This document shows positions 2,952 to 61,960 of a DNA stretch of 64,000 bases, in pieces (positions within the stretch are counted from its first letter, which is position 1; every line of letters starts with the position of its first letter). A program made the position numbers and the translations under genes. The DNA is from a virus, in IMG/VR virus record IMGVR_UViG_3300010883_000017, positions 1 through 64,000 of that record, one strand, 5' to 3'. Below the pieces are notes generated by a model, which worked only from the letters and a program-made list of their open reading frames with translations, was not told where the DNA came from and made no database searches.

Positions 2952-5705
2952 ATGAGTACTGGCAATCCAGGTAAAAGTTTGAATATTCATGCCCCGTGGC
3001 ATGAAGTTCTACAGCTTCTTGATATTAATGTGCAGGTTCTTGTGTTGCCTGCCACTGTATCTTGTCCACATTGTAAACAAACTAGTTTACATGTATATCA
3101 GGATATCACATCTGGCGGCGCATGGCACTACTGCTCCGCCTGCAAATTCGCCGGTGATACAATAGAGTTAGTAGCTTCAGTATGGAAGCAGGATATCGCA
3201 ACGACCATACTTAAGCTAAACGCCCACGGCATTAGTTTCCCAGATGATGCGCTAGATCCTAGTATAATCGATCGCTACATACTGGGTCACGTAGAATACC
3301 GTAAAGGGATCCAGGCATTATGGGAATTATCTCAAGAACGTCTACCGCTTAATGATACCCACACGATAGCAAAATTGCATGATAAATTCACCGCAGGGCA
3401 CACAGCAAGTAGTATAACATGGCCTCGTCGTGGAAAATGTTTTCTTGGTGGTTGTCATATTAACGATGTTTTACGCGCATTTCGTCAAGAGAAGGTGCGG
3501 AATAGCGGGCCAGATTTAGATCCCTGCACACTGAATTCCGGCTATGACCGCATCTTCAAGGGTCGCGGTTGGACGGATGTGCTTGTGCTCCCGCACTACG
3601 AATTACCTGGAAAAATACGCGGGTTTACGTTCATCGGGCGCGAGGGTAGCGCAAAAGACATACTTTACCGGCGCGTGAATACCCACCCCGCAGGGCGCCG
3701 CCCCAAAATAGAAACTAACGCAGCAGCGTACGATCCGGGCCTAACCATGTACGAGACTATGTTCTCGTACCATTCCAGGTACAAGAGCACGACGTTTGTT
3801 CTTGCTGATCCTGTTGCCGCTTTGCGCCTGCAGCTTCGGCACCTACGGCAAAGCAACACACCGCTTCCTGTATGCGGCAGCTATTCTGATGGGAAGTTGA
3901 CCAATCGTTGGTTGTGGTCGGCGGCCTTTTCGCGGAATTTCATTTTTTGGGGTCGGACACTAACACCAGATCTCATCCAGCAGGCGCGCCACGCAAATGG
4001 CAAGATAGCCGTTGGAAAAACATTAAGTACGCTTGCGGCAGCGCCTTCAGAAAAATCACCTACTCAATGGCTTGATTTGATGGAACGCACTGCCAAGCCT
4101 TGGCAGGTTGTACTGGAAGATGAACTCAACGCCGCCAGCTTACCCGTCGCAGAGAGTTTGCTGTTACGGCTGCGGCTATCTTCTCAAGAGCTGAAGGAGT
4201 TTTCTACTGGGTGTAGCTTAGCTGTCCGTGAAAAATTGGCAGACCTATTTGCAACTACAAAGCATGGTTTTAAATCTGTGCTTGTGGAGAGTAAGACTTT
4301 AATAGAAACAAAAGAGGGCTGGTGCCTAGAAGATGGAACAGTAATCTGTGATACCGTAATTCGTATTGAAAAAGTGGTGCACCAACCCACAAAAAATTGC
4401 GCGTATTACCGAGGATACATAGAGAGAAACGGCAGTCGCGTAGAGTTCACAGATGAAGTTGAATATGTAGAGGTTCATGTAGGCAAGTGGTTACGTAATA
4501 AACTGATTTCTGCCGGCCTCGGGCGGCCTAAAGTCTCAAGGACATGGCAGAAGCACCTACTTACGATCGCACAAAGCTTTCACGAGCCAGAAAATGTGGT
4601 GGGGATCGGTTCCTTTGGTTGGAAAGAGGAGCAGCAGTCATTCGTATTTCCACATTTTGTATTGCGCAGGAACGGCGAAGTCGTTGACGACCCGCTTGTT
4701 CGTGTTGTTAATGACAATTCTCCCGCGGTTGCGTTACGACAGCCCCAGCTGCTAACGCCGCAACAGGTCGCACAATTAAACGAACCTGAAGAGCATCTGG
4801 ACGTGTTTTGGGCGACCACAGCGTGTGTAGTGTCAAACATCATATCGCCCGCATTTAACCTGCCGCCTACAGGACTCGCGCTCTTTGGTGCTGGCGCCAC
4901 TATGGCCGGGCGGGCAGCTGCCCGCACACTTGGTTGTGTAGACGTTGAGCTAGGGCAGCAGACGATGGGCAGTGCGTTGCGTAAATTACACACGGCTAAT
5001 ACGGCGCACGGCTGGCCGTTTGTCCTCAAAAAATACGGCACAGTAAAAAATAAGACACTCCGCGCATGGTTAGCTGACCCAGAAGCTAAAAACTGTGTGG
5101 TGGTTGCGGGCTGGTATCAAGCACAAGTACTGATGTTAAACGGCGGGTGGAACGTAATTGAATGCCAACGTCCGGGAACAACACTACACAGCGTCCTAGA
5201 GCTGGGTCCGATTGTATTGCCTGCCTTTCTACAGTACCTGTGCCGGCAACGATTGCAGATACAACGTGACGAGGGCCTCGTGCGCGGTGTACTTAACGAG
5301 CTATCCCTGTGGTTTGAAGGGCTAGGCGGGCACGACTTGCGCAGGTGCGGACGGCTACTACACGTCGGAGAAGTATTTTCCAGGGAACCGCAGCCGCGTG
5401 AGCGTTTTCTGAATATTGTCTTTCAAATGATGACAGAACATAAGTTGCGACTAGTCATAGAAGGGTTTAATAACGAGGGCCGCGCGAACCAAGCAATTCA
5501 ACACAATGAACATATCTACGTGCCGCAGCAGGCAGTACTAGAACTTATCGCAAAGAAAGGCGCCCCGGGGCCGAACATAAACTTGCTTGAGCAAGAGTTC
5601 AACACGTACTCCGTAAATGGTGCACTGTACTGGTCTATTCCTGAAGAGGAGTGGCTAACCGCAATAAACGAAAGGAGACCCAGCGCAATAACAGAGGTAA
5701 TATGA
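2952..5705 (+). CDS. large protein with N-terminal CHC2-type (primase-like) zinc finger
   Basis: CPHC...HYCSACKFAGDTIELV and LVLPHYELPGKIRGFTFIGR resemble the DnaG N-terminus; no clear TOPRIM acidic motif. Confidence 0.55.
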   Translation: MSTGNPGKSLNIHAPWHEVLQLLDINVQVLVLPATVSCPHCKQTSLHVYQDITSGGAWHYCSACKFAGDTIELVASVWKQDIATTILKLNAHGISFPDDALDPSIIDRYILGHVEYRKGIQALWELSQERLPLNDTHTIAKLHDKFTAGHTASSITWPRRGKCFLGGCHINDVLRAFRQEKVRNSGPDLDPCTLNSGYDRIFKGRGWTDVLVLPHYELPGKIRGFTFIGREGSAKDILYRRVNTHPAGRRPKIETNAAAYDPGLTMYETMFSYHSRYKSTTFVLADPVAALRLQLRHLRQSNTPLPVCGSYSDGKLTNRWLWSAAFSRNFIFWGRTLTPDLIQQARHANGKIAVGKTLSTLAAAPSEKSPTQWLDLMERTAKPWQVVLEDELNAASLPVAESLLLRLRLSSQELKEFSTGCSLAVREKLADLFATTKHGFKSVLVESKTLIETKEGWCLEDGTVICDTVIRIEKVVHQPTKNCAYYRGYIERNGSRVEFTDEVEYVEVHVGKWLRNKLISAGLGRPKVSRTWQKHLLTIAQSFHEPENVVGIGSFGWKEEQQSFVFPHFVLRRNGEVVDDPLVRVVNDNSPAVALRQPQLLTPQQVAQLNEPEEHLDVFWATTACVVSNIISPAFNLPPTGLALFGAGATMAGRAAARTLGCVDVELGQQTMGSALRKLHTANTAHGWPFVLKKYGTVKNKTLRAWLADPEAKNCVVVAGWYQAQVLMLNGGWNVIECQRPGTTLHSVLELGPIVLPAFLQYLCRQRLQIQRDEGLVRGVLNELSLWFEGLGGHDLRRCGRLLHVGEVFSREPQPRERFLNIVFQMMTEHKLRLVIEGFNNEGRANQAIQHNEHIYVPQQAVLELIAKKGAPGPNINLLEQEFNTYSVNGALYWSIPEEEWLTAINERRPSAITEVI

Positions 5706-6319
5706 AATTCAAAAACAACACGAAGTGGGACACACAGCAGCTCCGAAAGATTATAGCTGCAGTTATGAATAGATATTTAAACAAGGAACAACGTAAAACT
5801 CTAACTATTGTCGCCGACCCGATTAGGACGGGCGGCCGCTTTAAAGTCGCGGTAACTCAGCAACAAGAGGGCTGGATGGCCGGCCGGCCGGGCCGCTCTT
5901 GTTCTGTTACGTTTACTGTTCCTAATGACACAACAGCAGGCTCTATTCGGTTTAATTGTGTCTCCTTCGCGCGGCGAAACGCTTGGAAGCACAAGAAGGA
6001 AACCACTACGCAATATACAGCCTGGTCCAATCGAGTGGGTGCGATGCCTTTAGACGAGGCAGTTATAGAAAAGAAAACGAAGGACCCCCTCGAGGAGTCG
6101 CAAAAAGGCTTGAAGTCCTCGTTAGCAAGCGCTGTTGAGTGGAAAGATAAGATGCTGCGCGCAGCGAACAAGGTCCAGGATTACGAGAAAAAAGCTAAAT
6201 ACCATACAGCACGTATTATATTATTGAAAAAACAGAGAAGCGGCGAAGTTCGAAAAAAGAAGTCCCCTAAAGCTGGCGACAGGGGTTTTCGAATCGCGCG
6301 CCGTAGACGAGGTACTTAA
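5702..6319 (+). CDS. basic hypothetical protein
   Basis: GAGG RBS before ATG 5702; ATGA overlap with the upstream stop. Confidence 0.6.
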   Translation: MKFKNNTKWDTQQLRKIIAAVMNRYLNKEQRKTLTIVADPIRTGGRFKVAVTQQQEGWMAGRPGRSCSVTFTVPNDTTAGSIRFNCVSFARRNAWKHKKETTTQYTAWSNRVGAMPLDEAVIEKKTKDPLEESQKGLKSSLASAVEWKDKMLRAANKVQDYEKKAKYHTARIILLKKQRSGEVRKKKSPKAGDRGFRIARRRRGT

Positions 6320-6579
6320 TGACATTAACACGAAGCACGCCTATTTGCGTGAAATGTAAAGTGATTATGAAGTGTCACAAAAATGCTCAATTTGTACAGG
6401 ACCCGACTGTTGGCGGGTTTCCGAGCACAGTTTGGAGTGGGGATGTCTGGAAATGTCCAGGCTGCTCGTGTAAGGTTGTAACTGGTTTCGGGTCGGCTAT
6501 CGTTAACGGTGTTGGCTCAGTTGATGTTTTAGAATTTAAGTGGGACCTCAAAAGTCCCAACGAAAACGAAGGAGAGTAG
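6319..6579 (+). CDS. small zinc-ribbon protein
   Basis: CVKC...WKCPGC. Confidence 0.6.
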   Translation: MTLTRSTPICVKCKVIMKCHKNAQFVQDPTVGGFPSTVWSGDVWKCPGCSCKVVTGFGSAIVNGVGSVDVLEFKWDLKSPNENEGE

Positions 6580-10158: not shown

Positions 10159-10750
10159 GCGCCCTAAGTCAGCGCGCCTGCATAGCTTGTTACAGGAGTT
10201 GGATATCAAATCCTGGGACGTGCTCTTAATAGGGGATGGTTCCGGCAGCGGCTGGGATATCGGGGTTGGTTGGTCGTGCGTAGTGATAGATCGATATACG
10301 AAGTCTCGGAAGCTAATACACGGCGGCGGTAGTACAGGAACTGTAAATATCGCGGAGCTGATGGCCTACGTGCACGCCATGCTTTGGTACTCTACCCACA
10401 TAGGCCGTGAGCTGCGCAAGCAATACCCTCGCAAGATTCTCAATATTCATGTAATCACGGATTCCCGTGTTATTGTGACCCAGGGCAAGAAGGTTGCAGA
10501 ACGGAACACAGAAGGGCTGGCTAACCGCGCGTTGTGGGCATCCATCAGCGATATCGCCCGCCAGGGTTACACATTCCACTGGCATTGGATCGCGCGGCTC
10601 ACTAATGAATTGAACTGGGCGGCCGATCAGATGGCAGGCTCAGCCAGAAAAGCTGTAAAAAATTGCATGCTTACTGAGGACGTGCCGGATGAGAACGGCA
10701 AGTATACGGGGGTGTCGATATACGACATCAACCCACTAATTAAAAAATGA
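10145..10750 (+). CDS. rnhA: ribonuclease HI
   Basis: Catalytic pattern IGDGS...VNIAEL...ITDS...NRALW...WHWI...N..AD; start uncertain (track ORF begins 10079). Confidence 0.82.
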   Translation: MKKSKRPKSARLHSLLQELDIKSWDVLLIGDGSGSGWDIGVGWSCVVIDRYTKSRKLIHGGGSTGTVNIAELMAYVHAMLWYSTHIGRELRKQYPRKILNIHVITDSRVIVTQGKKVAERNTEGLANRALWASISDIARQGYTFHWHWIARLTNELNWAADQMAGSARKAVKNCMLTEDVPDENGKYTGVSIYDINPLIKK

Positions 10751-10868
10751 CCAAAGGTTAGCGAAGAATAGCAAAGTGAGGTTGCGGCTAGTTATGCGTG
10801 GGTGTGAAATTTCGTGCATTGTTTAGCAAGTGCCCCCGTTATGTAGAAATATATACCGGGGGATTTTT
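10749..10868 (+). ncRNA. detached array unit U0 (pentamer tract + GAAA hairpin + U-tract)
   Basis: 10754-10828 reads aaggt tagcg aagaa tagca aagtg aggtt gcggc tagtt atgcg tgggt gtgaa atttc gtgca ttgtt tagca (G at position 3 in 14/15), then cccccgttatgta-GAAA-tatataccggggg-attttt-aatccaag, matching the array repeat. Confidence 0.8.
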
Positions 10869-10932
10869 AATCCAAGTGCAGTGAAGAGAGACTAGAAGTG
10901 CAAATCCAAGTAACACAAGGCAAAGTAGGACA

Positions 10933-11481
10933 ATGAATATCTGCCATGAGCACGAGTTCATACTATGGGCACACCCGAGAACCGCAGCGCGTTTTGTATA
11001 TTCTGCGCTGCGGAACCGCGGAAGCATGGGTCCTCTCACGCATCGAACCGGTGTTCCGATAGACGGCGCTGGTTACAGTGTTGTTTGCACGGTGCGCAAT
11101 CCCTATACGCGAATGCTATCTGCGTGGAAGTGGACGAATGCGGTGGGAAAGCAGCGGTACTCGCCGGAGAGTTTTACGGAGTTTGTAAGAAAGCACACGC
11201 CGTTATGGGGGTTACCGCCGATTTCAAAGGACCTGGGCCACAAGTTGAAGATGGTCAAATACTTTGTGCGCACAGAGTCGATTGAGAAAGACTTACGCGC
11301 ACTCCCCTGGGTTCCGGACACACATTCGTTCCCCAAGAATACGTACTGTAGTAATTATAAGGGCTACACTCCGACCGCTTTGTATGACGAAGAAGCACAA
11401 GAGAAAGTTCGCCGGTTGTATTGCGGAGATTTTGCAGAGTTCGGATACGATCCAGATGTGATTCCCGCAACGTTTTATTAA
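10933..11481 (+). CDS. sulfotransferase family 2 protein
   Basis: HPRTA, VRNPYTRMLSAW, FVRTESIEKDL, LY..D...FGY. Confidence 0.8.
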   Translation: MNICHEHEFILWAHPRTAARFVYSALRNRGSMGPLTHRTGVPIDGAGYSVVCTVRNPYTRMLSAWKWTNAVGKQRYSPESFTEFVRKHTPLWGLPPISKDLGHKLKMVKYFVRTESIEKDLRALPWVPDTHSFPKNTYCSNYKGYTPTALYDEEAQEKVRRLYCGDFAEFGYDPDVIPATFY

Positions 11482-11494
11482 CGAAAGAAGGACA

Positions 11495-11755
11495 ATGAGA
11501 GTAACGGAGATTTCTGTAGAAGTAGGCAGAACTGCCACCATTAATTACCAGAGCGCGCGCAACTCAGTTGGTCTTACAGCCACCCTAGCGGCTGATGACC
11601 ACGCGCCTACCGCGATCCGCTCGTTACAAAAGCAAGCCGTAGATATGCTTCTAGGTGACAACGAACAATTTCGGGACGCCGAAAATGTGACTTCTGTGGA
11701 TGCGGAGAGCCTAGATGCGGCTATTCGTGCAGGGGCGGAGTCTCGCGAACACTGA
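11495..11755 (+). CDS. hypothetical protein
   Basis: AAGGA RBS, compact ORF. Confidence 0.6.
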   Translation: MRVTEISVEVGRTATINYQSARNSVGLTATLAADDHAPTAIRSLQKQAVDMLLGDNEQFRDAENVTSVDAESLDAAIRAGAESREH

Positions 11756-11796
11756 TTTACCGTGGGTAACGGGCAAATACTTTGTTATCCATAACA

Positions 11797-12810
11797 GGAT
11801 TTTTGATCTAAGTCGTGCCCCGTAGTGTGGAGAGGATCTAAGAGGACTACCGCCGACAACAGGAAGTACGGTATGCATCCTTGGCGTGCAGAAATGTGCG
11901 CCAGGGGTTTTTTGATCTAAGGCCAGTCTTGAGGAACGAAGTTCGGGAAAGTCTCGATGAGTTTACTTGTGTACTGCCAATTTTAGTTCGCAATAGTGAT
12001 GGAAAGCGGTGCGGATTTTAGCGCGGCGTAGTACAGTGCCCCCGCCATGTGGAAACGCGTGGCGGGGGATTTTTGATCCAAGGGAAGAGGCGCAAAGGGG
12101 TACCAAGTTGAGCTCCGCATACAAACGCTTAGAACTCGGCAGTACAGCGAGGGATAGCGCTGCGCAGCGATGCGTAGACTAATGTAAGTAAGCATCCCTG
12201 TCGTATGGAAACATGCGCCAGGGATTTTTTGATCTAAGAAATAGCAAAGCAGCGTACGGGCATGATCACTCATAACAAGTCGAGCGCACTCTAGGTGTGT
12301 GCGGTATACAAGAGTAACAGCCCCCGTCATGTAGAAATGTGTGACGGGGGATTTTTGATCTAAGCCGGGTAGGGTAGAGGGATGCTCGGTAAATACCAGC
12401 CGGGACAAGTGTGGCCGTCAAGTGCGGGCTCAGTTAAGTTAGCGCTTCCGTCGTGCAGAAATGTGTGGCGGGGGATTTTTGATCCTAGGAAAGAGCCGTT
12501 GTGGCAAGTGGAGAGGAGCCCAGACCAGCATCGTATAGTAGCGCTCGGTCAAGCTCGGGATACCTTAGCCCGCGTAATCAGAGATGGTTGCGCGGGTATT
12601 TTTGGCCCCGTTCGTCTAGTGGACTAGGACACCGGCTTCTCAAGCCGGGAACAGGAGTTCAATTCTCCTACGGGGTACATTTTGATCCAAGTGGAGTCGA
12701 TATTACCGGTGTATAGGGGAGGCTAGTCCTGCAACGAGCAGTTCTGCGTCGCTCAGATAACCAGACTAGTGGGCCCGGGCGTTCGTTACGGGCGCTCGGG
12801 CTCATTTATT
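11797..12810 (+). repeat. tandem non-coding RNA array of 7 units: GATCYAAG + (AGY-NN)n tract + hairpin + U-tract
   Basis: Unit starts (GATCYAAG/GATCCTAG) at 11805, 11914, 12075, 12231, 12357, 12481, 12684. GNRA hairpins begin near 11879, 12039, 12195, 12321, 12445, 12568, with G-U pairs and compensatory changes; the last unit ends in a different GC hairpin (12771-12803). Tracts differ between units but are 5-nt periodic. Confidence 0.92.
12605..12677 (+). tRNA. tRNA-Glu (anticodon CUC), embedded in the array
   Basis: Acceptor gccccgt/acggggt, D arm gtctagtggactaggac, anticodon arm ccggc-ttCTCaa-gccgg, T arm aggag-ttcaatt-ctcct; no complete CCA encoded. Confidence 0.9.
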
Positions 12811-12812
12811 AC

Positions 12813-13889
12813 GTGGCAAACTGGGTTCAAATAGGGAATGTAAATATGAAAAGCAGGAAGAAAAAAGTTAAGCAAAATACAAAGCGAAACGCGCCGAAAA
12901 CATCAGTTTTGCGCCGCAAGAATACACGTTTAATGAGCAGGACTTCCGGAGGACGGCAGTCAGTTGTCGAAGCGCGTCTTGATAAAAAGGCCGATACAAT
13001 TTTGGCCAAAGCAAAAATCATCAAGATAGCTGCGCAACCAACAAAGGTGTACCGCACTGTGAAAATTGACGATCTCCAGATCGACAACTCTTATCAGCGT
13101 CCGCTGAAAGAAGGTCATATTGCTGACATCATGATGTACTTCAATTGGGAGGGCTTCGGCACACCAGTTATAGGACGCCGTACTGGTGGCGGGCTATGGT
13201 TAATTGACGGGCAGCAGCGGATTACCGCAGCGCAGCGCTTGGGTGCTACCAGCGTTGGCGCAGAGATCCGCGATTCTGTAGGGCCCAAATATGAAGCAAG
13301 TCTGTTTCATTTGTTGAACTCAACGAGCGTCGTCCCGACGAAGATGCAGATCTTCCGCGCGGCATTGCGCGCGGGTAATAAGAACGCCGTTGCTATCAAT
13401 AAAGCAGTTAAAGAGGCGGGATTTCAAATCCATTTGAATGCGGTCAATTATAGCGGCAGCGAGTGGCCGTATATTCGAGCACTCAGTCGTTTAGAAAAGC
13501 TGTTTAAGTACGGCGGCGTACAATTTCTTACGGAGGTGCTCTCGATAATTAGTGAGACGTGGCCGGAAGAAGATGACGCAGTTCGCGAGGACGTTATCGG
13601 TGGAATGCACCGGTTTATTCGTTTTACTCGGTACAGTGATCCGCGCCCCAAGGGCTGGTTGCACGAGCTCATGCCCACAAGGGGGATGACGCGCCGCGAT
13701 CGTATCGTAGAGGCGATTACGCAGAAGGGTCTGACTGCTGCAGGCTTACATAACAAAGCTGCGAACAGCAAGGAATCGGCGTCTGGCTACAGCCGCGCCG
13801 AAGCTGTGCAGCGTATCTTGGACGAGACGTGCAGGTTTAATAGCCGCCGTAGAACGCCTAAAAGTACCGCTGCCGACGACATGGTTTAA
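12813..13889 (+). CDS. ParB/DGQHR-like (DUF6551-type) protein
   Basis: LQIDNSYQRPL ... LWLIDGQQRITAA ... EASLF..LN; the real start may be ATG 12846. Confidence 0.7.
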   Translation: MANWVQIGNVNMKSRKKKVKQNTKRNAPKTSVLRRKNTRLMSRTSGGRQSVVEARLDKKADTILAKAKIIKIAAQPTKVYRTVKIDDLQIDNSYQRPLKEGHIADIMMYFNWEGFGTPVIGRRTGGGLWLIDGQQRITAAQRLGATSVGAEIRDSVGPKYEASLFHLLNSTSVVPTKMQIFRAALRAGNKNAVAINKAVKEAGFQIHLNAVNYSGSEWPYIRALSRLEKLFKYGGVQFLTEVLSIISETWPEEDDAVREDVIGGMHRFIRFTRYSDPRPKGWLHELMPTRGMTRRDRIVEAITQKGLTAAGLHNKAANSKESASGYSRAEAVQRILDETCRFNSRRRTPKSTAADDMV

Positions 13890-13902
13890 TACATGCGTAT
13901 AA

Positions 13903-14018
13903 GCCCCCACACACACACTTTGCGTGTGTGCGGGGGTTGTTTACTGCTCTGTGCTGCTGCGCGATACAAAGCGGAGCTGGGTCAAGCGGAGAAATGCCCG
14001 GGCCAGCATAGCAGAGTT
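13903..14018 (+). promoter_or_regulatory. hairpin plus pentamer-periodic tract in the leader of the RAMP-like gene
   Basis: ccccc...ggggg hairpin at 13903-13937, then 13944-14018 ctgct ctgtg ctgct gcgcg ataca aagcg gagct gggtc aagcg gagaa atgcc cgggc cagca tagca gagtt (G at position 3 in 14/15). Confidence 0.75.
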
Positions 14019-14051
14019 TTTGTTTTTGAAATTAAATGGAGGAATTTGAGT

Positions 14052-14846
14052 ATGCCAACCACAAAAAAGGCCCCTAAAAAGGCCACTAAAAAGAGAGGCG
14101 TTAAAGGAAATATGTCTGCGATGTTAGCAGAGATGCCAGACGACGCGCTTGCTACCATAGAAAAAGAGGGGGGAGACCTTCTCGACCTGGAGCTTATTGA
14201 GTTTCACTGGTTGGAGTGTGAAATCATCGGATCAAGTCCTTTGGTTACTAATCGGTTCTCTGATGAGTCTTTGGATGCGATCGAGGGTAATCAGACCCAA
14301 GGAGCAACTGGTAAGAAGCTTAAGAAGCCCCCGCGACAACCTGAGAAGGAGTTTATGCAGGCTGCGCATATATGTAAGGGGAAAGCAGATCCTGCGCACC
14401 TTGAGAAGAACATCTATGGATTTCCCGCTGTCGCTTTGAAAAAGGCCATGGCTAACGGGAACTACAGATACGGAGGCGCGAAGGATAAGGTGTCGCAGAT
14501 GGGCGCATTTCATGTGCACGGCCCCTGGCACGGGCTGATCGAGGTGCAGGGGCTTGATGACAAGCCGTGTATCCCCTCGATGGGACGTGATATGGTCCAG
14601 CTTCCTAAGGGGCAGATTGCGTCTATCGCGTATAGACCATACTACTTCCCGTGGAAGATGAGCGTATTTATCCGGTATTGTCCGACCTTGATGTCCAAGG
14701 ACGAGCTGATTCACGCCCTGTATATCGCAGGCAATTGCATCGGCATTGGTTCTTGGCGCACGGAAAAGAGCGGGGACAAGGGCTCGTTCGACGTCGGTGA
14801 TATCAAGTACCACGGAAAAAACTTCCAAGCACCTCTGTGCTCGTAA
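14052..14846 (+). CDS. stand-alone RAMP / Cas7(Csm3)-like RNA-binding protein
   Basis: GGAGG RBS before ATG 14052; beta1 ECEIIGSSPLV, YGFPAVALKKAM (cf. Csm3 PYIPGSSLKG), C-terminal G-rich loop GIGSWRTEKSGDKGSFDV. Confidence 0.72.
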   Translation: MPTTKKAPKKATKKRGVKGNMSAMLAEMPDDALATIEKEGGDLLDLELIEFHWLECEIIGSSPLVTNRFSDESLDAIEGNQTQGATGKKLKKPPRQPEKEFMQAAHICKGKADPAHLEKNIYGFPAVALKKAMANGNYRYGGAKDKVSQMGAFHVHGPWHGLIEVQGLDDKPCIPSMGRDMVQLPKGQIASIAYRPYYFPWKMSVFIRYCPTLMSKDELIHALYIAGNCIGIGSWRTEKSGDKGSFDVGDIKYHGKNFQAPLCS

Positions 14847-14858
14847 ATAGTTAGTTAC

Positions 14859-14906
14859 GCCCCCGGCCTCGTTGATTATGTCAGCGGGGCCGGGGTTATT
14901 TTTTTT
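14859..14906 (+). terminator. intrinsic terminator after the RAMP-like gene
   Basis: ccccggcctcgttga/tcagcggggccgggg stem followed by a T8 tract. Confidence 0.75.
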
Positions 14907-38168: not shown

Positions 38169-39845
38169 ATGGCCAACAGTCGAGGTATCGACGGACAGAA
38201 TAGCTTTGCCTTTACGAAAGGGCGCATGAGTCCGTCGTTAGTCGAGTCTATGCTGATTCGACTCTTATCACATCCAGGTTTATTTCAAGAAGCTAAGGGT
38301 ATTCTCTTACCAACTCATTTTGAGAGCACTGAGTCTCGGTTTTCTGCTATTTGGGCGGCGGCCATTCAGTGTGATGATGAGTTTGCTCGGTTGACCTTTG
38401 AGACGATGTCAGACCGGGTTGAAGAGTTACTTGCTGATGCAGGAGAAGATGTTTCTTCGCAACAGGGAGAGGCGATTTTTGGAACGGACCCAGACCGCCC
38501 GGGGATTCTTTACTGGGCGTTATCGCAAGTAGATCCCGCCGATGTCGACCTTGATCAAGGGCGCCATCTTCTACGTCGTTTTTTAGAAGAGCGGGTACTT
38601 GCTGACGAGCTGCGAAGTGCGCTTGAATTTGCTCCCGGCGGCGTCCCGTCTAATCTTCCCGCCATTATTGAGCGGGCTAACCAGGCGCGGGAGCGCATCA
38701 CCAATATTCAAGATGATCCTGTAGAGCTGGGGATCCCTGATAATTGGGAACCAGAATCGCTCGACATCTGGCCAACATGCTTACCCTTTTTAGACACACC
38801 TATGGACGGTGGTCACGCGCGTGGCGAGGTGTACGGGATCTTGGGGCCGTTTGGCGTTGGGAAAACTACTCTTGGTATTCAACTGTGCGTGGAGCAATGT
38901 CGTTACTGGCACGACCGCGAGGTTGAGTATGGAGAAGAGGGTGGGCAGGTTTTTTTCTTCAGTTATGAGCAATCGGCTACGGAAGTTCGTAGGAAGGCTG
39001 TTGCCTGCGCTGCGCGTATTCACATGTCGACGATGAATACTATTACGGGAGAAGACAGTTTTAGCACTCGGGGTTCTCTTAAGGACTATGAGACGGAGAT
39101 GTTCAGGCAATCTGGCCTACTGTCTAACGGTGCTCCGCCTCCGCCAGGAGAGCTAGAGCGGTACGAGGATATTAAGGAGATGCTGCGCACACACTTACGT
39201 ATTGTTGATCTCTCTGGCGGCGCTAAGAAGCGTACCGGTGATGGGTATGTAGGCGAGATCGCAGCAATTCTTGAAAATAGCGTAAGGAAGCACAATTCTA
39301 AGCCTCGCATGGTTTGTATAGATCATGTGTGGCTTGCGGCGTACCGGCATCTATCGTCACAGGGAATGGATGAGCGGCGATTGCGGCACTTCATTACCAT
39401 GTTTGGTGACGATATGAAGACTAAAGTTGCTGAGCGGTACGAGATTCCTTGTTGGTTGTTGCATCAATATAACGGTGATGCGAATAAGGCCTCTCCGGCT
39501 AAGCTTCTTCATCATACCCAGGCGGCAGAGTCTTCTAGCTTTGCTATGCCTTTATCTTTTTGCTTTTGCATTGGAAATAAAGATCAGCAGTCTAATACTG
39601 CGCAGATGGTCTGCACCAAGCGACGGCGATCGGGAAATCCATTACCGCCCTCAATACTTGAAATTGAGGGGCAGTTTTCGACATTGCTTGATAGAACTGA
39701 CGCCTTTGTTGTCCAGCATGATAAGATTCTCCCCCGAGAGTTAGCTGAGCAGTTTGGCGGTTCAGCAGAGGAGGTAAATTATGTTCCACGTCCACAGCAG
39801 GGTGGTGGTTTGGATGGTGCGGGAGTCTGGGGCCCGGGAGTATGA
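38169..39845 (+). CDS. dnaB: DnaB-like replicative helicase
   Basis: GGHARGEV..ILGPFGVGKTT, FSYEQ, VCIDH, LLHQ, K.R. Confidence 0.8.
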   Translation: MANSRGIDGQNSFAFTKGRMSPSLVESMLIRLLSHPGLFQEAKGILLPTHFESTESRFSAIWAAAIQCDDEFARLTFETMSDRVEELLADAGEDVSSQQGEAIFGTDPDRPGILYWALSQVDPADVDLDQGRHLLRRFLEERVLADELRSALEFAPGGVPSNLPAIIERANQARERITNIQDDPVELGIPDNWEPESLDIWPTCLPFLDTPMDGGHARGEVYGILGPFGVGKTTLGIQLCVEQCRYWHDREVEYGEEGGQVFFFSYEQSATEVRRKAVACAARIHMSTMNTITGEDSFSTRGSLKDYETEMFRQSGLLSNGAPPPPGELERYEDIKEMLRTHLRIVDLSGGAKKRTGDGYVGEIAAILENSVRKHNSKPRMVCIDHVWLAAYRHLSSQGMDERRLRHFITMFGDDMKTKVAERYEIPCWLLHQYNGDANKASPAKLLHHTQAAESSSFAMPLSFCFCIGNKDQQSNTAQMVCTKRRRSGNPLPPSILEIEGQFSTLLDRTDAFVVQHDKILPRELAEQFGGSAEEVNYVPRPQQGGGLDGAGVWGPGV

Positions 39846-40927
39846 TGAGTAGCGGTGCACAGGTACTTAATCCTGAGTTGTACCGGCGTCTTCAGAAAAA
39901 CTTTGGTAATGTATTGATTGCGAATCCCGGCGAGGGATTTGTGGCAACTGTACGCCGAGGGTTGGACGGGCGCCCTAAGCAGCAGATAGCGCACTCTGGG
40001 GAGTACTACAGAGTGTGCTGTCCTTATTGTAAAGACACCCGTAACCGATTATGGGTGAACCATAAATTCGGGGCCTTTGATGAAAATACACGCAGTAAAA
40101 ATACGCACTTGGCTATTTGCTACAACGAGAACTGCCTAACCCACCCGGCACAGCGGCAGCGTTTTGAAAACGCGATATTCCTCGGAATGAACTGGTCTCA
40201 ACGTAAAGCCGTGGTTGTTCAGCGGGGCAGTACGCACGACGATACGCTTCGTGTTGTAAGTCCACCGGGCACGCTTGTTCCTGTTAATCAGCTCGCAGAT
40301 GGCCATAAGGTTTCAGCATATTTGCGTAGTCGTGGCTACTCTCCGGAGGAGCTCGGGACGTCTTTTCATGTTGATTATTGTGAGTTCGCCGAGCCTAAGT
40401 ACCCTGCAGCCGCCGATCGTATTGTGGCGTCTGTTGTAATGGACGGGCAGCTTGTTGGTTGGCAGTGTCGTTTTATTGGTGACATTGACTGGAAGCGTGC
40501 GGGGATGGCTAAGTACTATACCCGGCCGGGTATGCCTAAGAGGTTGATGTTTTACAACTATGATCAGGCTAAGAATTATCCATTGGTGGTTCTTACTGAG
40601 GGTATCTCAGATGTTTGGGCTGTCGGTCCGCAAGCAGTTGCCATGCTTGGTAAAAAGTTGCACGCCTCTCAAGAGCGCCTCTTGTGCGACACATGGGGCG
40701 AAGGTGTGCTGGTCGTAATGCTGGACCCCGACGCACGAGATGAAACTGATAAGTTGGTTCAGCGGTTAGAGTCTAAATTTGCAGGTGGTGTGGTTCCTGT
40801 TTACTTAGATGAGCAGGACCCCGGCGATCTTGATCGGGATGTTATCTGGTCAATTATTTCTGAAGAGTTAAAATCACGTAATTACCAAATGTATTCACTA
40901 GAAGAAAAAGAAGGAGATATATCATGA
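39842..40927 (+). CDS. dnaG: DnaG-like primase
   Basis: Zn finger CPYC.D...C..E.C, YL.SRG, GWQCR, KYY, TOPRIM LTEG..D, LDPDA, DPGD. Confidence 0.85.
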   Translation: MMSSGAQVLNPELYRRLQKNFGNVLIANPGEGFVATVRRGLDGRPKQQIAHSGEYYRVCCPYCKDTRNRLWVNHKFGAFDENTRSKNTHLAICYNENCLTHPAQRQRFENAIFLGMNWSQRKAVVVQRGSTHDDTLRVVSPPGTLVPVNQLADGHKVSAYLRSRGYSPEELGTSFHVDYCEFAEPKYPAAADRIVASVVMDGQLVGWQCRFIGDIDWKRAGMAKYYTRPGMPKRLMFYNYDQAKNYPLVVLTEGISDVWAVGPQAVAMLGKKLHASQERLLCDTWGEGVLVVMLDPDARDETDKLVQRLESKFAGGVVPVYLDEQDPGDLDRDVIWSIISEELKSRNYQMYSLEEKEGDIS

Positions 40928-61239: not shown

Positions 61240-61960
61240 TGAAGGGTGGTGGTGGGGAATCGGAAACCCGTACCCCTCGCCATCACCCACTTTTATACAA
61301 CTGGCCTCGGAGGGTGTTTCGCCCTCCACGTGAAGAGGTAGTCGGACCAGGTCCTCACACGACCTCGCTCCGCGACGCCGCGCAGGACTTGGTCCTACGA
61401 TCGGCATATTGAAAGCATGGAGGCGCCCTGATTCACCTAACAGTGATGAAGGGCGTCCCTGGTGCTTTCCACCCTACAAGCCCCGGAGAGGTCGCTCCTC
61501 CCACGCTCCGAAAGGCGGGCGTCCGGGCAAAGGCCGAGTGGCGGAACTGGCAGACGCTCAGGACTTAAAATCCTGTGTCCTCACGGACGTGCGGGTTCGA
61601 GTCCCGCCTCGGCTACCATAAACCTCCGGAGAGTGTTTCGCTCTCCACGTGATGGGGGTTTCCCCGGGCCATCCGCTGGTTTCGCTACGCGAAAACGCAG
61701 CTACTGGCCCCGGGGACCAGGTGCGATTGGAGCATAAGGGGTGACGAGCCACAGCTATCGGGACATTAGTCCCGGGACGCCTAGGGTTCGTTGCCCCTAA
61801 ATTGCTCCCTCCCATCACACACGAGGTTTCTGCGCAGCTTGTTCGCTGCGCTCACTGCGCTGCGACGCTGCAGCCGGAGCTGCCGGCCTTCCGCGGCATT
61901 CTAAGCATAAGGGACGGCGGAGTGCCGGGGACAGTCTCCTCGCGCATAAACCGCCGTCCC
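61240..61960 (+). ncRNA. cluster of structured non-coding elements around tRNA-Leu
   Basis: Consecutive long stems (e.g. gaaagca...tgctttc, tccccgggcca...tggccccgggga, ggagca...tgctcc, ggacggcgg...ccgccgtcc) and a duplicated motif with covariation. Confidence 0.55.
61532..61618 (+). tRNA. tRNA-Leu (anticodon UAA)
   Basis: Acceptor ggccgag/ctcggct + A-CCA, D arm gcggaactggcagacgc, anticodon arm cagga-ctTAAaa-tcctg, long variable arm, T arm gcggg-ttcgagt-cccgc. Confidence 0.95.

What the first reader, a model, noticed from the sequence alone, without database searches (positions are those of the whole stretch)
10749..14846. Candidate RNA-guided system: pentamer-coded small-RNA array plus stand-alone Cas7/RAMP-like protein
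Seen: eight non-coding units, each GATCYAAG + a unique tract of about 55-120 nt + hairpin + U-tract. About 1.2 kb downstream is a 264-aa protein with RAMP hallmarks (GSSPLV beta1, FPAVALKKAM, G-rich loop GIGSWR...GDKGSF), and its own leader carries the same periodic tract. No cas1/cas2/cas3/cas10 or CRISPR repeats occur in the window. Established: Cas7-type RAMPs polymerise along guide RNA with a fixed nucleotide step per subunit. Inference: the protein coats each unit at one subunit per 5 nt, gripping the conserved trinucleotide and displaying the variable bases as a gapped guide. From memory this resembles the recently reported phage VIPR-type systems (GGY/NN repeats), which should be verified. 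Here the scaffold is a looser AGY, so it may be an undescribed variant.
Basis: partly seen in the sequence, partly recalled or inferred. Interest (0 to 1): 0.96.

Follow-up and report, generated by a model that had tools for sequence, protein, structure and literature searches.

The report
Marine phage VIPR guide-RNA system
This stretch of a large marine phage carries a VIPR system, a CRISPR-like RNA-guided DNA silencer first published in 2026. It is a new example of a known family, and three of its roughly ten guides spell the catalytic motifs of DNA methyltransferase genes.

Summary
Between 10.75 and 14.85 kb there are eight hairpin-terminated non-coding units plus a leader tract. They are built of 5-nt repeats (A 57% / G 85% / Y 69% / N / N). 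A tRNA-Glu sits inside the array, and a conserved ParB/Noc-like gene and a 264-aa RAMP protein follow.

The protein is a homologue of the solved SUSP1 Vipr protein (profile E 1.3e-8) and folds like Cas7/Csm3/Cmr4. Related loci also carry period-5 arrays next to the gene.

The looser 'AGY' scaffold corresponds to the 'YNNNG' repeats already named in that paper. It goes with replacement of the two residues that read the first G in SUSP1 Vipr (D177 to Ser; H17 to Asn, tentative).

Decoding with the published 1-nt-skip rule gives:
- two guides matching motif IV of C5 DNA methylases;
- one guide matching motif IV of type I HsdM;
- three guides scanned (U1, U5, U9) without any match; three more (U3, U6, U7) not scanned against a collection.

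In 30 C5-methylase loci chosen without reference to the guides, only 3 or 4 reach an 80% match. This is not a pan-methylase panel.

This scan has already noted VIPR-type loci in at least 405 other genomes. Verdict: a new member of a known kind, of moderate interest.

The parts
10751..10868 (+). vrRNA candidate U1: 15 pentamers (periodic G at 10756-10826), a 13-bp hairpin with a GAAA loop (10833-10862) and a U-tract. It has no GATCYAAG handle.
11805..11913 (+). Unit U3: two GATCTAAG handles, a short tract with weak periodicity, a GNRA hairpin (11877-11908) and a U-tract.
11914..12074 (+). vrRNA U4: handle, 24 pentamers and a tail hairpin (12039-12068). Its 3' 13 repeats decode, antisense, to motif IV (NPPF) of type I HsdM.
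12075..12230 (+). vrRNA U5: handle, 20 pentamers and a tail. No target was found.
12231..12356 (+). vrRNA U6: handle, about 16 pentamers after a 1-nt register shift, and a tail hairpin (12321-12350). Target unknown; not scanned against a collection.
12357..12480 (+). vrRNA U7: handle, 11 or more pentamers and a tail hairpin (12445-12474). Target unknown; not scanned against a collection.
12481..12603 (+). vrRNA U8: GATCCTAG handle, 15 pentamers and a tail hairpin with a GAGA loop (12568-12597). It decodes, antisense, to motif IV of C5 DNA methylases (DLIIGGPPCQAF).
12605..12678 (+). tRNA-Glu (CTC) embedded in the array. It starts 1 nt after the U8 U-tract and ends 5 nt before the U9 handle. 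The same layout occurs in relative L022.
12684..12812 (+). vrRNA U9: handle, 16 pentamers and a different 17-bp hairpin (about 12768-12806). No target was found.
12846..13889 (+). ParB/Noc-like gene (DUF6551, 347 aa), the candidate vipr-accessory gene. It sits directly upstream of vipr in all close relatives.
13903..13935 (+). Hairpin containing a (CA)n run, after the ParB-like gene. The CA copy number differs between two metatranscriptome contigs.
13944..14018 (+). vrRNA U10 in the vipr leader: 15 pentamers and no GNRA tail. It decodes, antisense, to motif IV of C5 DNA methylases (LIGGFPCQPFS).
14052..14846 (+). vipr: a 264-aa RAMP protein, homologous to SUSP1 Vipr.
14861..14905 (+). Intrinsic terminator after vipr (16-bp stem plus T-run).

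Best explanation
This is a VIPR (Viral Interference Programmable Repeat) system of a large, lytic-type marine phage.

By homology with SUSP1 Vipr, the 264-aa Vipr protein polymerises along each vrRNA, one protomer per 5-nt repeat. It sequesters the conserved trinucleotide (here A/N-G-Y) and presents the two variable bases. Those bases pair with double-stranded DNA while skipping every third target base (the codon wobble position). Binding blocks transcription of the bound gene.

The guides are about ten RNAs. Nine lie in an array upstream, and most of these have a GAUCYAAG 5' handle, a pentamer tract, a 13-bp hairpin with a GNRA loop and a U-tract. One more lies in the vipr leader.

An embedded tRNA-Glu abuts two units. 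This suggests the array is read through as a precursor and that host tRNA-processing enzymes cut at least that junction (inferred).

The loose first position of the repeat fits the loss of the two side chains that read G1 in SUSP1 Vipr.

At least three guides are aimed at the catalytic-motif codons of DNA methyltransferase genes (two C5, one type I HsdM), in the host or in rival elements (inferred).

The conserved ParB/Noc-like neighbour is the likely DNA-binding accessory protein. Its role is unknown.
For: Shown here:
- Sequence homology to SUSP1 Vipr (PDB 36pp). The single sequence gives E 3e-4 and a 13-sequence profile gives E 1.3e-8. Thumb R138, G-loop W178 and R179 are conserved as R195, W235 and R236.
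- An AF2 model (pLDDT 74) whose top PDB matches are all Cas7-type RAMPs such as Cmr4, Csm3 and type VII Cas7, at E 1e-6 to 1e-4.
- The family profile finds 4,833 representative clusters.
- Period-5 statistics and position composition.
- Period-5 arrays lie beside vipr homologues in L017, L018, L020, L021, L027, L029, L037 and L040.
- Close relatives share the layout array / ParB-like gene / leader tract / vipr.
- The tail hairpin has compensatory changes in 11 of 13 pairs.
- The pentamer tract of U4 folds no better than shuffled sequence, z +1.26.
- The U8 and U10 core patterns each hit 7 IMG/VR contigs. All 14 lie in frame on the motif IV peptide; all seven U8 hit genes and the four U10 hit genes tested are PF00145. 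The best match is 26 of 30 guide bases.
- Five other 20-base guide patterns gave 0 hits in the same collection.
- The U4 pattern gave 9 hits in genome contigs against about 1 expected. Four are in frame at NPPF of HsdM, matching 23 of 26 bases.
- No self-target in the 73.8-kb record.
- Two metatranscriptome runs have contigs over the ParB-like gene, the leader and vipr.

From the literature: one protomer per repeat, GGY sequestration, the 1-nt skip and silencing are shown for SUSP1.
Against: - Nothing was measured for this locus. There is no small-RNA data, and the RNA-library contigs do not cover the array and could be DNA carry-over.
- No sigma-70-like promoter was found in the region, so how the units are transcribed is unknown.
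- No perfect target was found for any guide (best 87-88%). Of ten guides, three were scanned without a match (U1, U5, U9) and three more were never scanned against a collection (U3, U6, U7).
- U10 lacks the hairpin tail.
- The H17-to-Asn equivalence rests on a local alignment that is not significant on its own.
- The VIPR type (I-VII) could not be assigned, because the paper's supplementary tables are not held.
Confidence: 0.9

Rival explanations
1. The same ribonucleoprotein acts on RNA rather than DNA. The guides would be antisense to mRNAs, and the filament would bind transcripts as type III Cas7 filaments do.
For: All three guides with an identified target class (U4, U8, U10) are antisense to the coding strand. 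The nearest solved folds outside VIPR are RNA-targeting Csm3 and Cmr4.
Against: Three of three antisense is expected by chance one time in eight. SUSP1 VIPR binds double-stranded DNA and silences from either strand. No nuclease or Cas10-like partner is present in the locus.
Confidence: 0.06
2. The leader tract U10 is mainly an autoregulatory operator. Excess Vipr would coat its own mRNA leader and block translation, so the tract would not serve as a guide.
For: The tract lies 35 nt upstream of the vipr start and has no hairpin tail. An RNA-library contig runs across it into vipr.
Against: U10 decodes to a 12-residue C5-methylase motif IV string with 7 exact in-frame database hits. That is not expected for a mere operator. 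SUSP1 also has a functional vrRNA upstream of vipr. The two roles are not exclusive.
Confidence: 0.1
3. The array is only a run of terminators or promoters around a phage tRNA gene, and the RAMP-like gene is unrelated to it.
For: Each unit ends in a terminator-like hairpin. A tRNA lies in the array.
Against: Terminator cassettes do not explain several features:
- the period-5 composition with two information-free positions;
- the same tract type in the vipr leader;
- arrays next to vipr homologues in unrelated contigs;
- in-frame decoding to methylase motifs.
Confidence: 0.02

Closest known systems
Type II VIPR of Escherichia phage SUSP1 and the Pseudomonas fulva prophage (bioRxiv 10.64898/2026.04.26.720920, .720927 and 10.64898/2026.10.15.759431; PDB 36pp)
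   Same: - A phage-borne, stand-alone RAMP (Vipr) with conserved thumb Arg and G-loop Trp-Arg.
- vrRNAs made of tandem pentamers with two hypervariable bases.
- One vrRNA upstream of vipr plus an array.
- A structured 3' tail.
- Decoded targets lie in frame, with the skipped base at the wobble position.
- No self-targets.
   Different: - The repeat is A/N-G-Y-N-N rather than G-G-Y-N-N, and the G1-reading residues are replaced (D177 to Ser; H17 to Asn, tentative).
- The protein is 264 aa with a basic, disordered N-terminal extension, against about 200 aa.
- The tail is a GNRA hairpin plus U-tract, not a pseudoknot.
- The array lies upstream of the genes and holds a tRNA.
- The neighbour is a ParB/Noc-like protein.
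- Tracts run up to 24 repeats.
- The target classes found here are DNA methylases, not a satellite recombinase or prophage regulators.
VIPR systems with alternative YNNNG / NNNGG / NNNNG repeats (methods of 10.64898/2026.04.26.720920)
   Same: Only the second G and the pyrimidine of the trinucleotide are conserved, which is the YNNNG pattern named there.
   Different: The paper's type table and logos (fig. S17, data S4) are not held. So it cannot be said whether this clade, its ParB-like neighbour or its tail are among the seven described types.
Class 1 CRISPR Cas7 backbone subunits (Csm3, Cmr4, type VII Cas7)
   Same: An RRM/RAMP fold with a G-rich loop and thumb. These are the top structural matches. 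The protein polymerises on a guide with a fixed step.
   Different: - No CRISPR repeats, cas1/cas2 or effector partners.
- A 5-nt step with three bases flipped out, against a 6-nt step with one.
- The guide information is non-contiguous.
ParB / Noc / KorB CTP-dependent DNA clamps
   Same: The gene upstream of vipr has a ParB-type N-terminal domain followed by helical domains. The profile hits Noc at E 1e-5, and Foldseek hits ParB, Noc and KorB at E 8e-6 to 9e-4.
   Different: - The arginine-rich GERRxR box reads GQQRIT here, as in the DUF262/GmrSD_N type.
- CTP binding, DNA clamping and any link to Vipr are untested.
- More distant vipr loci lack this gene.

Membership tests
VIPR system | Vipr protein: a minimal RAMP (RRM core, G-rich loop, thumb) homologous to characterised Vipr | tested here: met
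   The profile matches the SUSP1 Vipr PDB chain at E 1.3e-8. The AF2 model matches Cas7-type RAMPs. R195, W235 and R236 align to R138, W178 and R179.
VIPR system | Non-CRISPR context: no CRISPR array and no cas genes | tested here: met
   No Cas1 in the 73.8-kb record. No CRISPR-type repeats. The record is only about 35% of the genome, so the rest is unseen.
VIPR system | Adjacent vrRNAs: tandem pentanucleotide repeats with a conserved trinucleotide and hypervariable NN (at least 4 units, typically 9-16) | tested here: met
   Ten tracts of 10-24 units. G is 85% and Y 69% at their positions, and the NN positions carry 0.00-0.01 bits. This is the YNNNG variant named in the paper.
VIPR system | A conserved structured 3' tail on the vrRNA | tested here: met
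   A 13-bp hairpin with a GNRA loop, with compensatory changes in 11 of 13 pairs over nine units from two phages. It differs from the SUSP1 pseudoknot. U10 lacks it.
VIPR system | Guides match natural DNA targets under the 1-nt-skip rule, with the skip at the codon wobble position and at least 80% NN match | tested here: met
   U8 and U10 match 26 of 30 bases and U4 (3' half) 23 of 26, all in frame in methylase genes. Three other guides were scanned without a match, and three were not scanned against a collection.
VIPR system | vrRNAs are expressed and co-purify with Vipr, and the RNP binds double-stranded DNA and represses transcription | not testable with these tools
   Only RNA-library contigs over the ParB-like gene, the leader and vipr are available. 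There is none on the array.
VIPR system | An accessory vap gene beside vipr | tested here: inconclusive
   The ParB/Noc-like gene is conserved directly upstream in L018-L021. Whether it equals one of vap1-6 cannot be checked.
VIPR type II (SUSP1 clade) | GGY/NN repeats, a pseudoknot tail and a vap1 neighbour | tested here: not met
   The first repeat position is A-rich (G 13%). The tail is a plain GNRA hairpin. The neighbour is ParB-like. Identity to SUSP1 Vipr is detectable only in the C-terminal third.
CRISPR-Cas class 1 | A CRISPR repeat-spacer array with a Cas7 backbone and partner Cas proteins | tested here: not met

The most novel reading that the evidence does not exclude
In this marine clade, VIPR would be an RNA-guided weapon against DNA modification.

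- Three of ten guides, including the one built into the vipr leader, would be kept matched to the catalytic motif IV codons of C5 and type I N6 DNA methyltransferases.
- The phage would thereby shut off methylase or restriction-modification operons of its host or of rival elements.
- The conserved ParB/Noc-like partner would be loaded at the guide-bound site to spread or lock the silencing.
- The Asn/Ser pocket would be an evolved relaxation of scaffold reading.
Probability: 0.2. Interest if true: 0.6.

Novelty: new member of a known kind. Interest (0 to 1): 0.4.

Why it matters
The locus extends a family published in 2026 to an abundant marine phage lineage seen in seawater data sets of 13 studies. 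It also offers three testable leads.

1. **Repeat code versus protein pocket.** Over ten loci, Viprs with His (β1) and Asp/Glu (G-loop) go with GG repeats. Viprs with Asn and Ser/Ala/Cys go with a single G. A two-residue swap could test how the scaffold is read and could widen the design space of guides.

2. **Methylase targets.** Some guides spell methylase catalytic motifs. This would link VIPR to restriction-modification conflicts, although only a minority of the methylase genes sampled are matched.

3. **New parts.** A ParB/Noc-like accessory gene and a tRNA built into the guide array point to new ways of processing guides and of acting on the bound DNA.

None of this changes what kind of system it is.

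Tried and rejected
- The long contigs of homologues P0010, P0012 and P0013 could not be read.
- **Guide scans without matches.** U4 (first pattern), U9 (two patterns), U1 and U5 had no exact match in IMG/VR. U9 was not found in 401 Bacteroidota genomes with up to 3 mismatches. The earlier notes' readings of U9 as a GHKL ATPase motif and U1 as a tyrosine-recombinase box therefore stay unconfirmed.
- **Convergence.** No locus is hit by several guides.
- **Self-targeting.** None above shuffle level.
- **Own methylase.** No C5 methylase in the phage record.
- **Pan-methylase panel.** The guides reach 80% in only 3/30 (U8) and 4/30 (U10) C5-methylase loci chosen without reference to the guides, against 0/30 for order-shuffled guides. 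This reading is rejected as stated.
- **Promoters and RNA families.** No sigma-70-type promoter. No Rfam family or ribozyme in the array.
- **Close relatives in GenBank.** No close cultured phage. Only Gordonia and Mycobacterium phage proteins at 23-29% identity.
- **Array expression.** RNA-library contigs do not cover the array. This is no evidence either way.
- **Coding-region tracts.** The period-5 tracts at 6425-6495 and 39797-39862 lie inside ORFs and are taken as chance.
- **Supplementary tables.** Those of the VIPR paper are not held. The later preprint's main text contains no word with 'methyl'.


Full report
**1. What is in the sequence**

The window is the first 64 kb of a 73.8-kb IMG/VR virus record that CheckV rates about 35% complete. 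It encodes a large terminase, a DNA polymerase, a DnaB-like helicase, a UvsX-like recombinase and an SbcC-like protein. It is therefore a piece of a large, lytic-type phage. Near-identical DNA occurs in seawater and marine metagenomes of 13 studies.

Between 10.75 and 12.81 kb lie non-coding units. Each begins with GATCYAAG, at 11805, 11835, 11914, 12075, 12231, 12357 and 12684. Variants stand at 12481 and 10870. Each unit continues with a unique tract and ends in a GC-rich hairpin and a T-run.

A tRNA-Glu (CTC) at 12605-12678 sits inside the array. It starts 1 nt after the U8 T-run and ends 5 nt before the U9 handle.

Then follow a 347-aa gene (12846-13889), a hairpin, a further tract (13946-14016), the 264-aa gene (14052-14846) and a strong terminator.

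**2. The periodicity is real**

In register, 132 pentamers have A 57% / G 85% / C+T 69% at three positions. The other two positions carry no information (0.01 and 0.00 bits).

Five period-5 G segments score 10 or more, and all lie within 10756-14016. Of 200 shuffles of the 64-kb window, 138 had none and none had more than two.

The tract of U4 folds no better than shuffled sequence (z +1.26). This fits a single-stranded, protein-bound region.

The tails form a 13-bp hairpin closed by a GNRA tetraloop (GAAA, or GAGA in U8). Across nine units from this phage and relative L018, 11 of 13 pairs show compensatory changes.

**3. The protein**

There is no Pfam match. PHROG 4652, of unknown function, matches at E 4e-9.

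Against PDB sequences the best hit is 'SUSP1 Vipr protein' (36pp). The single sequence gives E 3e-4, and a profile of 13 homologues gives E 1.3e-8. In that alignment SUSP1 R138 (thumb), W178 and R179 (G-loop) correspond to R195, W235 and R236 here. D177 corresponds to S234. A short N-terminal alignment, not significant on its own, puts N67 at the place of H17.

The AF2 model (pLDDT 74) matches Cmr4, Csm3, type VII Cas7 and Cas7-11 as its top PDB hits, at E 1e-6 to 1e-4. It also matches an uncharacterised viral protein at E 2e-13.

A profile search of 1.84 billion representatives finds 4,833 clusters. The protein therefore belongs to a large family.

**4. What the literature says**

VIPR systems were described in 2026 (10.64898/2026.04.26.720920):
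- a phage-borne minimal RAMP (Vipr);
- an accessory vap gene;
- vrRNAs of 9-16 YNNGG repeats with a structured tail.

The NN bases pair with double-stranded DNA while skipping one target base per repeat. The skipped base usually falls at the codon wobble position, and binding silences transcription.

Cryo-EM shows one protomer per repeat. G1 is read by H17 and D177. G2 is read by R138 and W178. Y3 sits in a pocket with R179 (10.64898/2026.04.26.720927).

The methods also name alternative YNNNG, NNNGG and NNNNG repeats. The repeat here is of the YNNNG kind.

**5. Related loci**

Close relatives (69-82% Vipr identity; Tara and JGI marine contigs L018-L022) share the order sulfotransferase-like ORF / 86-aa ORF / array / ParB-like gene / leader tract / vipr / terminator. 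L022 also has tRNA-Glu (CTC) between a tail and a GATCTAAG handle.

More distant homologues (L017, L027, L029, L037, L040) have period-5 arrays beside vipr but no ParB-like gene.

Over ten loci the residues at the two G1-reading positions follow the repeat type:
- His plus Glu goes with GG doublets (L017, L040).
- Asn plus Ser or Ala goes with a single G followed by a pyrimidine (window, L018, L020, L023, L027, L037).
- L016 (Asn/Ala) and L029 (Asn/Cys) show a G-S-T pattern.

This is a small sample. It fits the structure paper and explains the 'looser' scaffold.

**6. Targets**

Earlier first-stage notes of this scan suggested reading the NN pairs as codon positions 1-2. I decoded all tracts myself and tested the results against real DNA.

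- **U8 (antisense).** It spells x-D-x-D-L-I-I-G-G-P-P-C-Q-A-F. A 20-base core pattern has 7 exact matches in IMG/VR. All are in frame at motif IV of PF00145 C5 methylases, with up to 26 of 30 guide bases matched.
- **U10 (vipr leader).** It spells L-I-G-G-F-P-C-Q-P-F-S. There are 7 matches, all on that peptide in frame; the four hit genes tested are PF00145, with up to 26 of 30 bases matched.
- **U4 (3' 13 repeats).** They spell A-V-T-A-N-P-P-F-S-I-D/E-K/N-W. There are 9 matches in genome contigs against about 1 expected. Four are in frame at NPPF of type I HsdM (HsdM_N plus N6_Mtase), with 23 of 26 bases matched. The other hits are short ORFs, likely chance.
- **Background.** Five other 20-base guide patterns gave no IMG/VR match. 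They serve as a de facto background.

No guide matches the phage's own record above shuffle level, and the record holds no C5 methylase.

I tested breadth in 30 C5-methylase loci taken from Bacteroidota genomes without reference to the guides. U8 reaches 80% in 3 and U10 in 4. Order-shuffled guides reach 80% in none.

So the guides fit motif IV far better than chance but are not a pan-methylase panel. The real targets are probably particular methylase genes of the unknown host or of rival elements.

The targets of U1, U5 and U9 were searched for and not found. The GHKL and recombinase readings of the earlier notes could not be confirmed. U3, U6 and U7 were not scanned against a collection, so their targets are simply unknown.

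**7. The accessory gene**

The 347-aa protein matches DUF6551 (E 1e-10) and, weakly, GmrSD_N and ParB_N. Its family profile hits Noc in the PDB (E 1e-5). Its model matches ParB, Noc and KorB.

It sits directly upstream of vipr in all close relatives that have enough sequence.

I infer a DNA-binding partner. Whether it clamps, spreads or cuts is unknown. The VIPR papers' main texts do not mention ParB.

**8. Expression**

No sigma-70-like promoter is predicted.

The tRNA abuts its neighbours, so U8, the tRNA and U9 are most simply one precursor that reads through the hairpins. tRNA-processing enzymes would then free one 3' end and one 5' end (inference).

Two metatranscriptome runs hold contigs over the ParB-like gene, the leader and vipr. 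One contig bridges 13609-14097. None covers the array, and DNA carry-over cannot be excluded.

**9. Verdict**

The locus is a genuine VIPR system and hence a new member of a known kind.

Several details may be new but could not be checked against the authors' tables:
- the Asn/Ser pocket with A-G-Y repeats;
- the GNRA-hairpin tail;
- the tRNA inside the array;
- the ParB/Noc-like neighbour;
- the methylase-motif guides.

This scan has already noted VIPR-type loci in at least 405 genomes. An earlier check reported that a similar 'methylase panel' claim partly fell on other DNA. My breadth test agrees with that caution.

Noticed in passing
window 61311-61388 (minus strand), with a second hairpin copy at about 61628-61646: On the minus strand there are ten perfect period-5 G pentamers of the same A/N-G-Y type (61343-61388). 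About 14 nt further on stands a 6-bp hairpin with a GAAA-containing loop. A second copy of that hairpin lies just after tRNA-Leu (61532-61618). This may be a solo vrRNA about 47 kb from vipr.
   Followed up: partly
window 13905-13916: A (CA)n run sits inside the hairpin after the ParB-like gene. It varies in copy number: one metatranscriptome contig has +CA and another has -2 nt.
   Followed up: no
window 10933-11481 and 11495-11755; L018 about 5200-5715: A sulfotransferase-like ORF (PF03567, E 5e-4) and an 86-aa ORF precede the array. Relative L018 has the same two ORFs in the same order. Their function here is unknown.
   Followed up: no
window 10870-10932: The handle-like motif AATCCAAG occurs twice in the leader of the sulfotransferase-like ORF, without a hairpin tail. 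The handle may therefore be a transcription-start or processing signal that is not limited to vrRNAs.
   Followed up: no
window 6425-6495 and 39797-39862: Two further period-5 G tracts (13/15 and 12/14) lie inside ORFs: a 70-aa Cys-rich ORF, and the junction of the helicase gene with the next ORF. They are probably chance.
   Followed up: partly
L043, L044, L046 and L048 (Acidobacteriota and Chloroflexota contigs): The U4 core pattern also hits a repeated 54-aa ORF (peptide TAKPPFSIENC) in three Acidobacteriota genomes, plus a similar short ORF in L048. The 54-aa ORF tested (L044) has no Pfam match. These are unexplained and are treated as chance or a small repeat element.
   Followed up: no
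L017 6223-6764: A distant relative has a 540-nt run of GGY/NN repeats in several overlapping registers just downstream of vipr. This resembles the 'staggered arrays' described in the VIPR paper.
   Followed up: no
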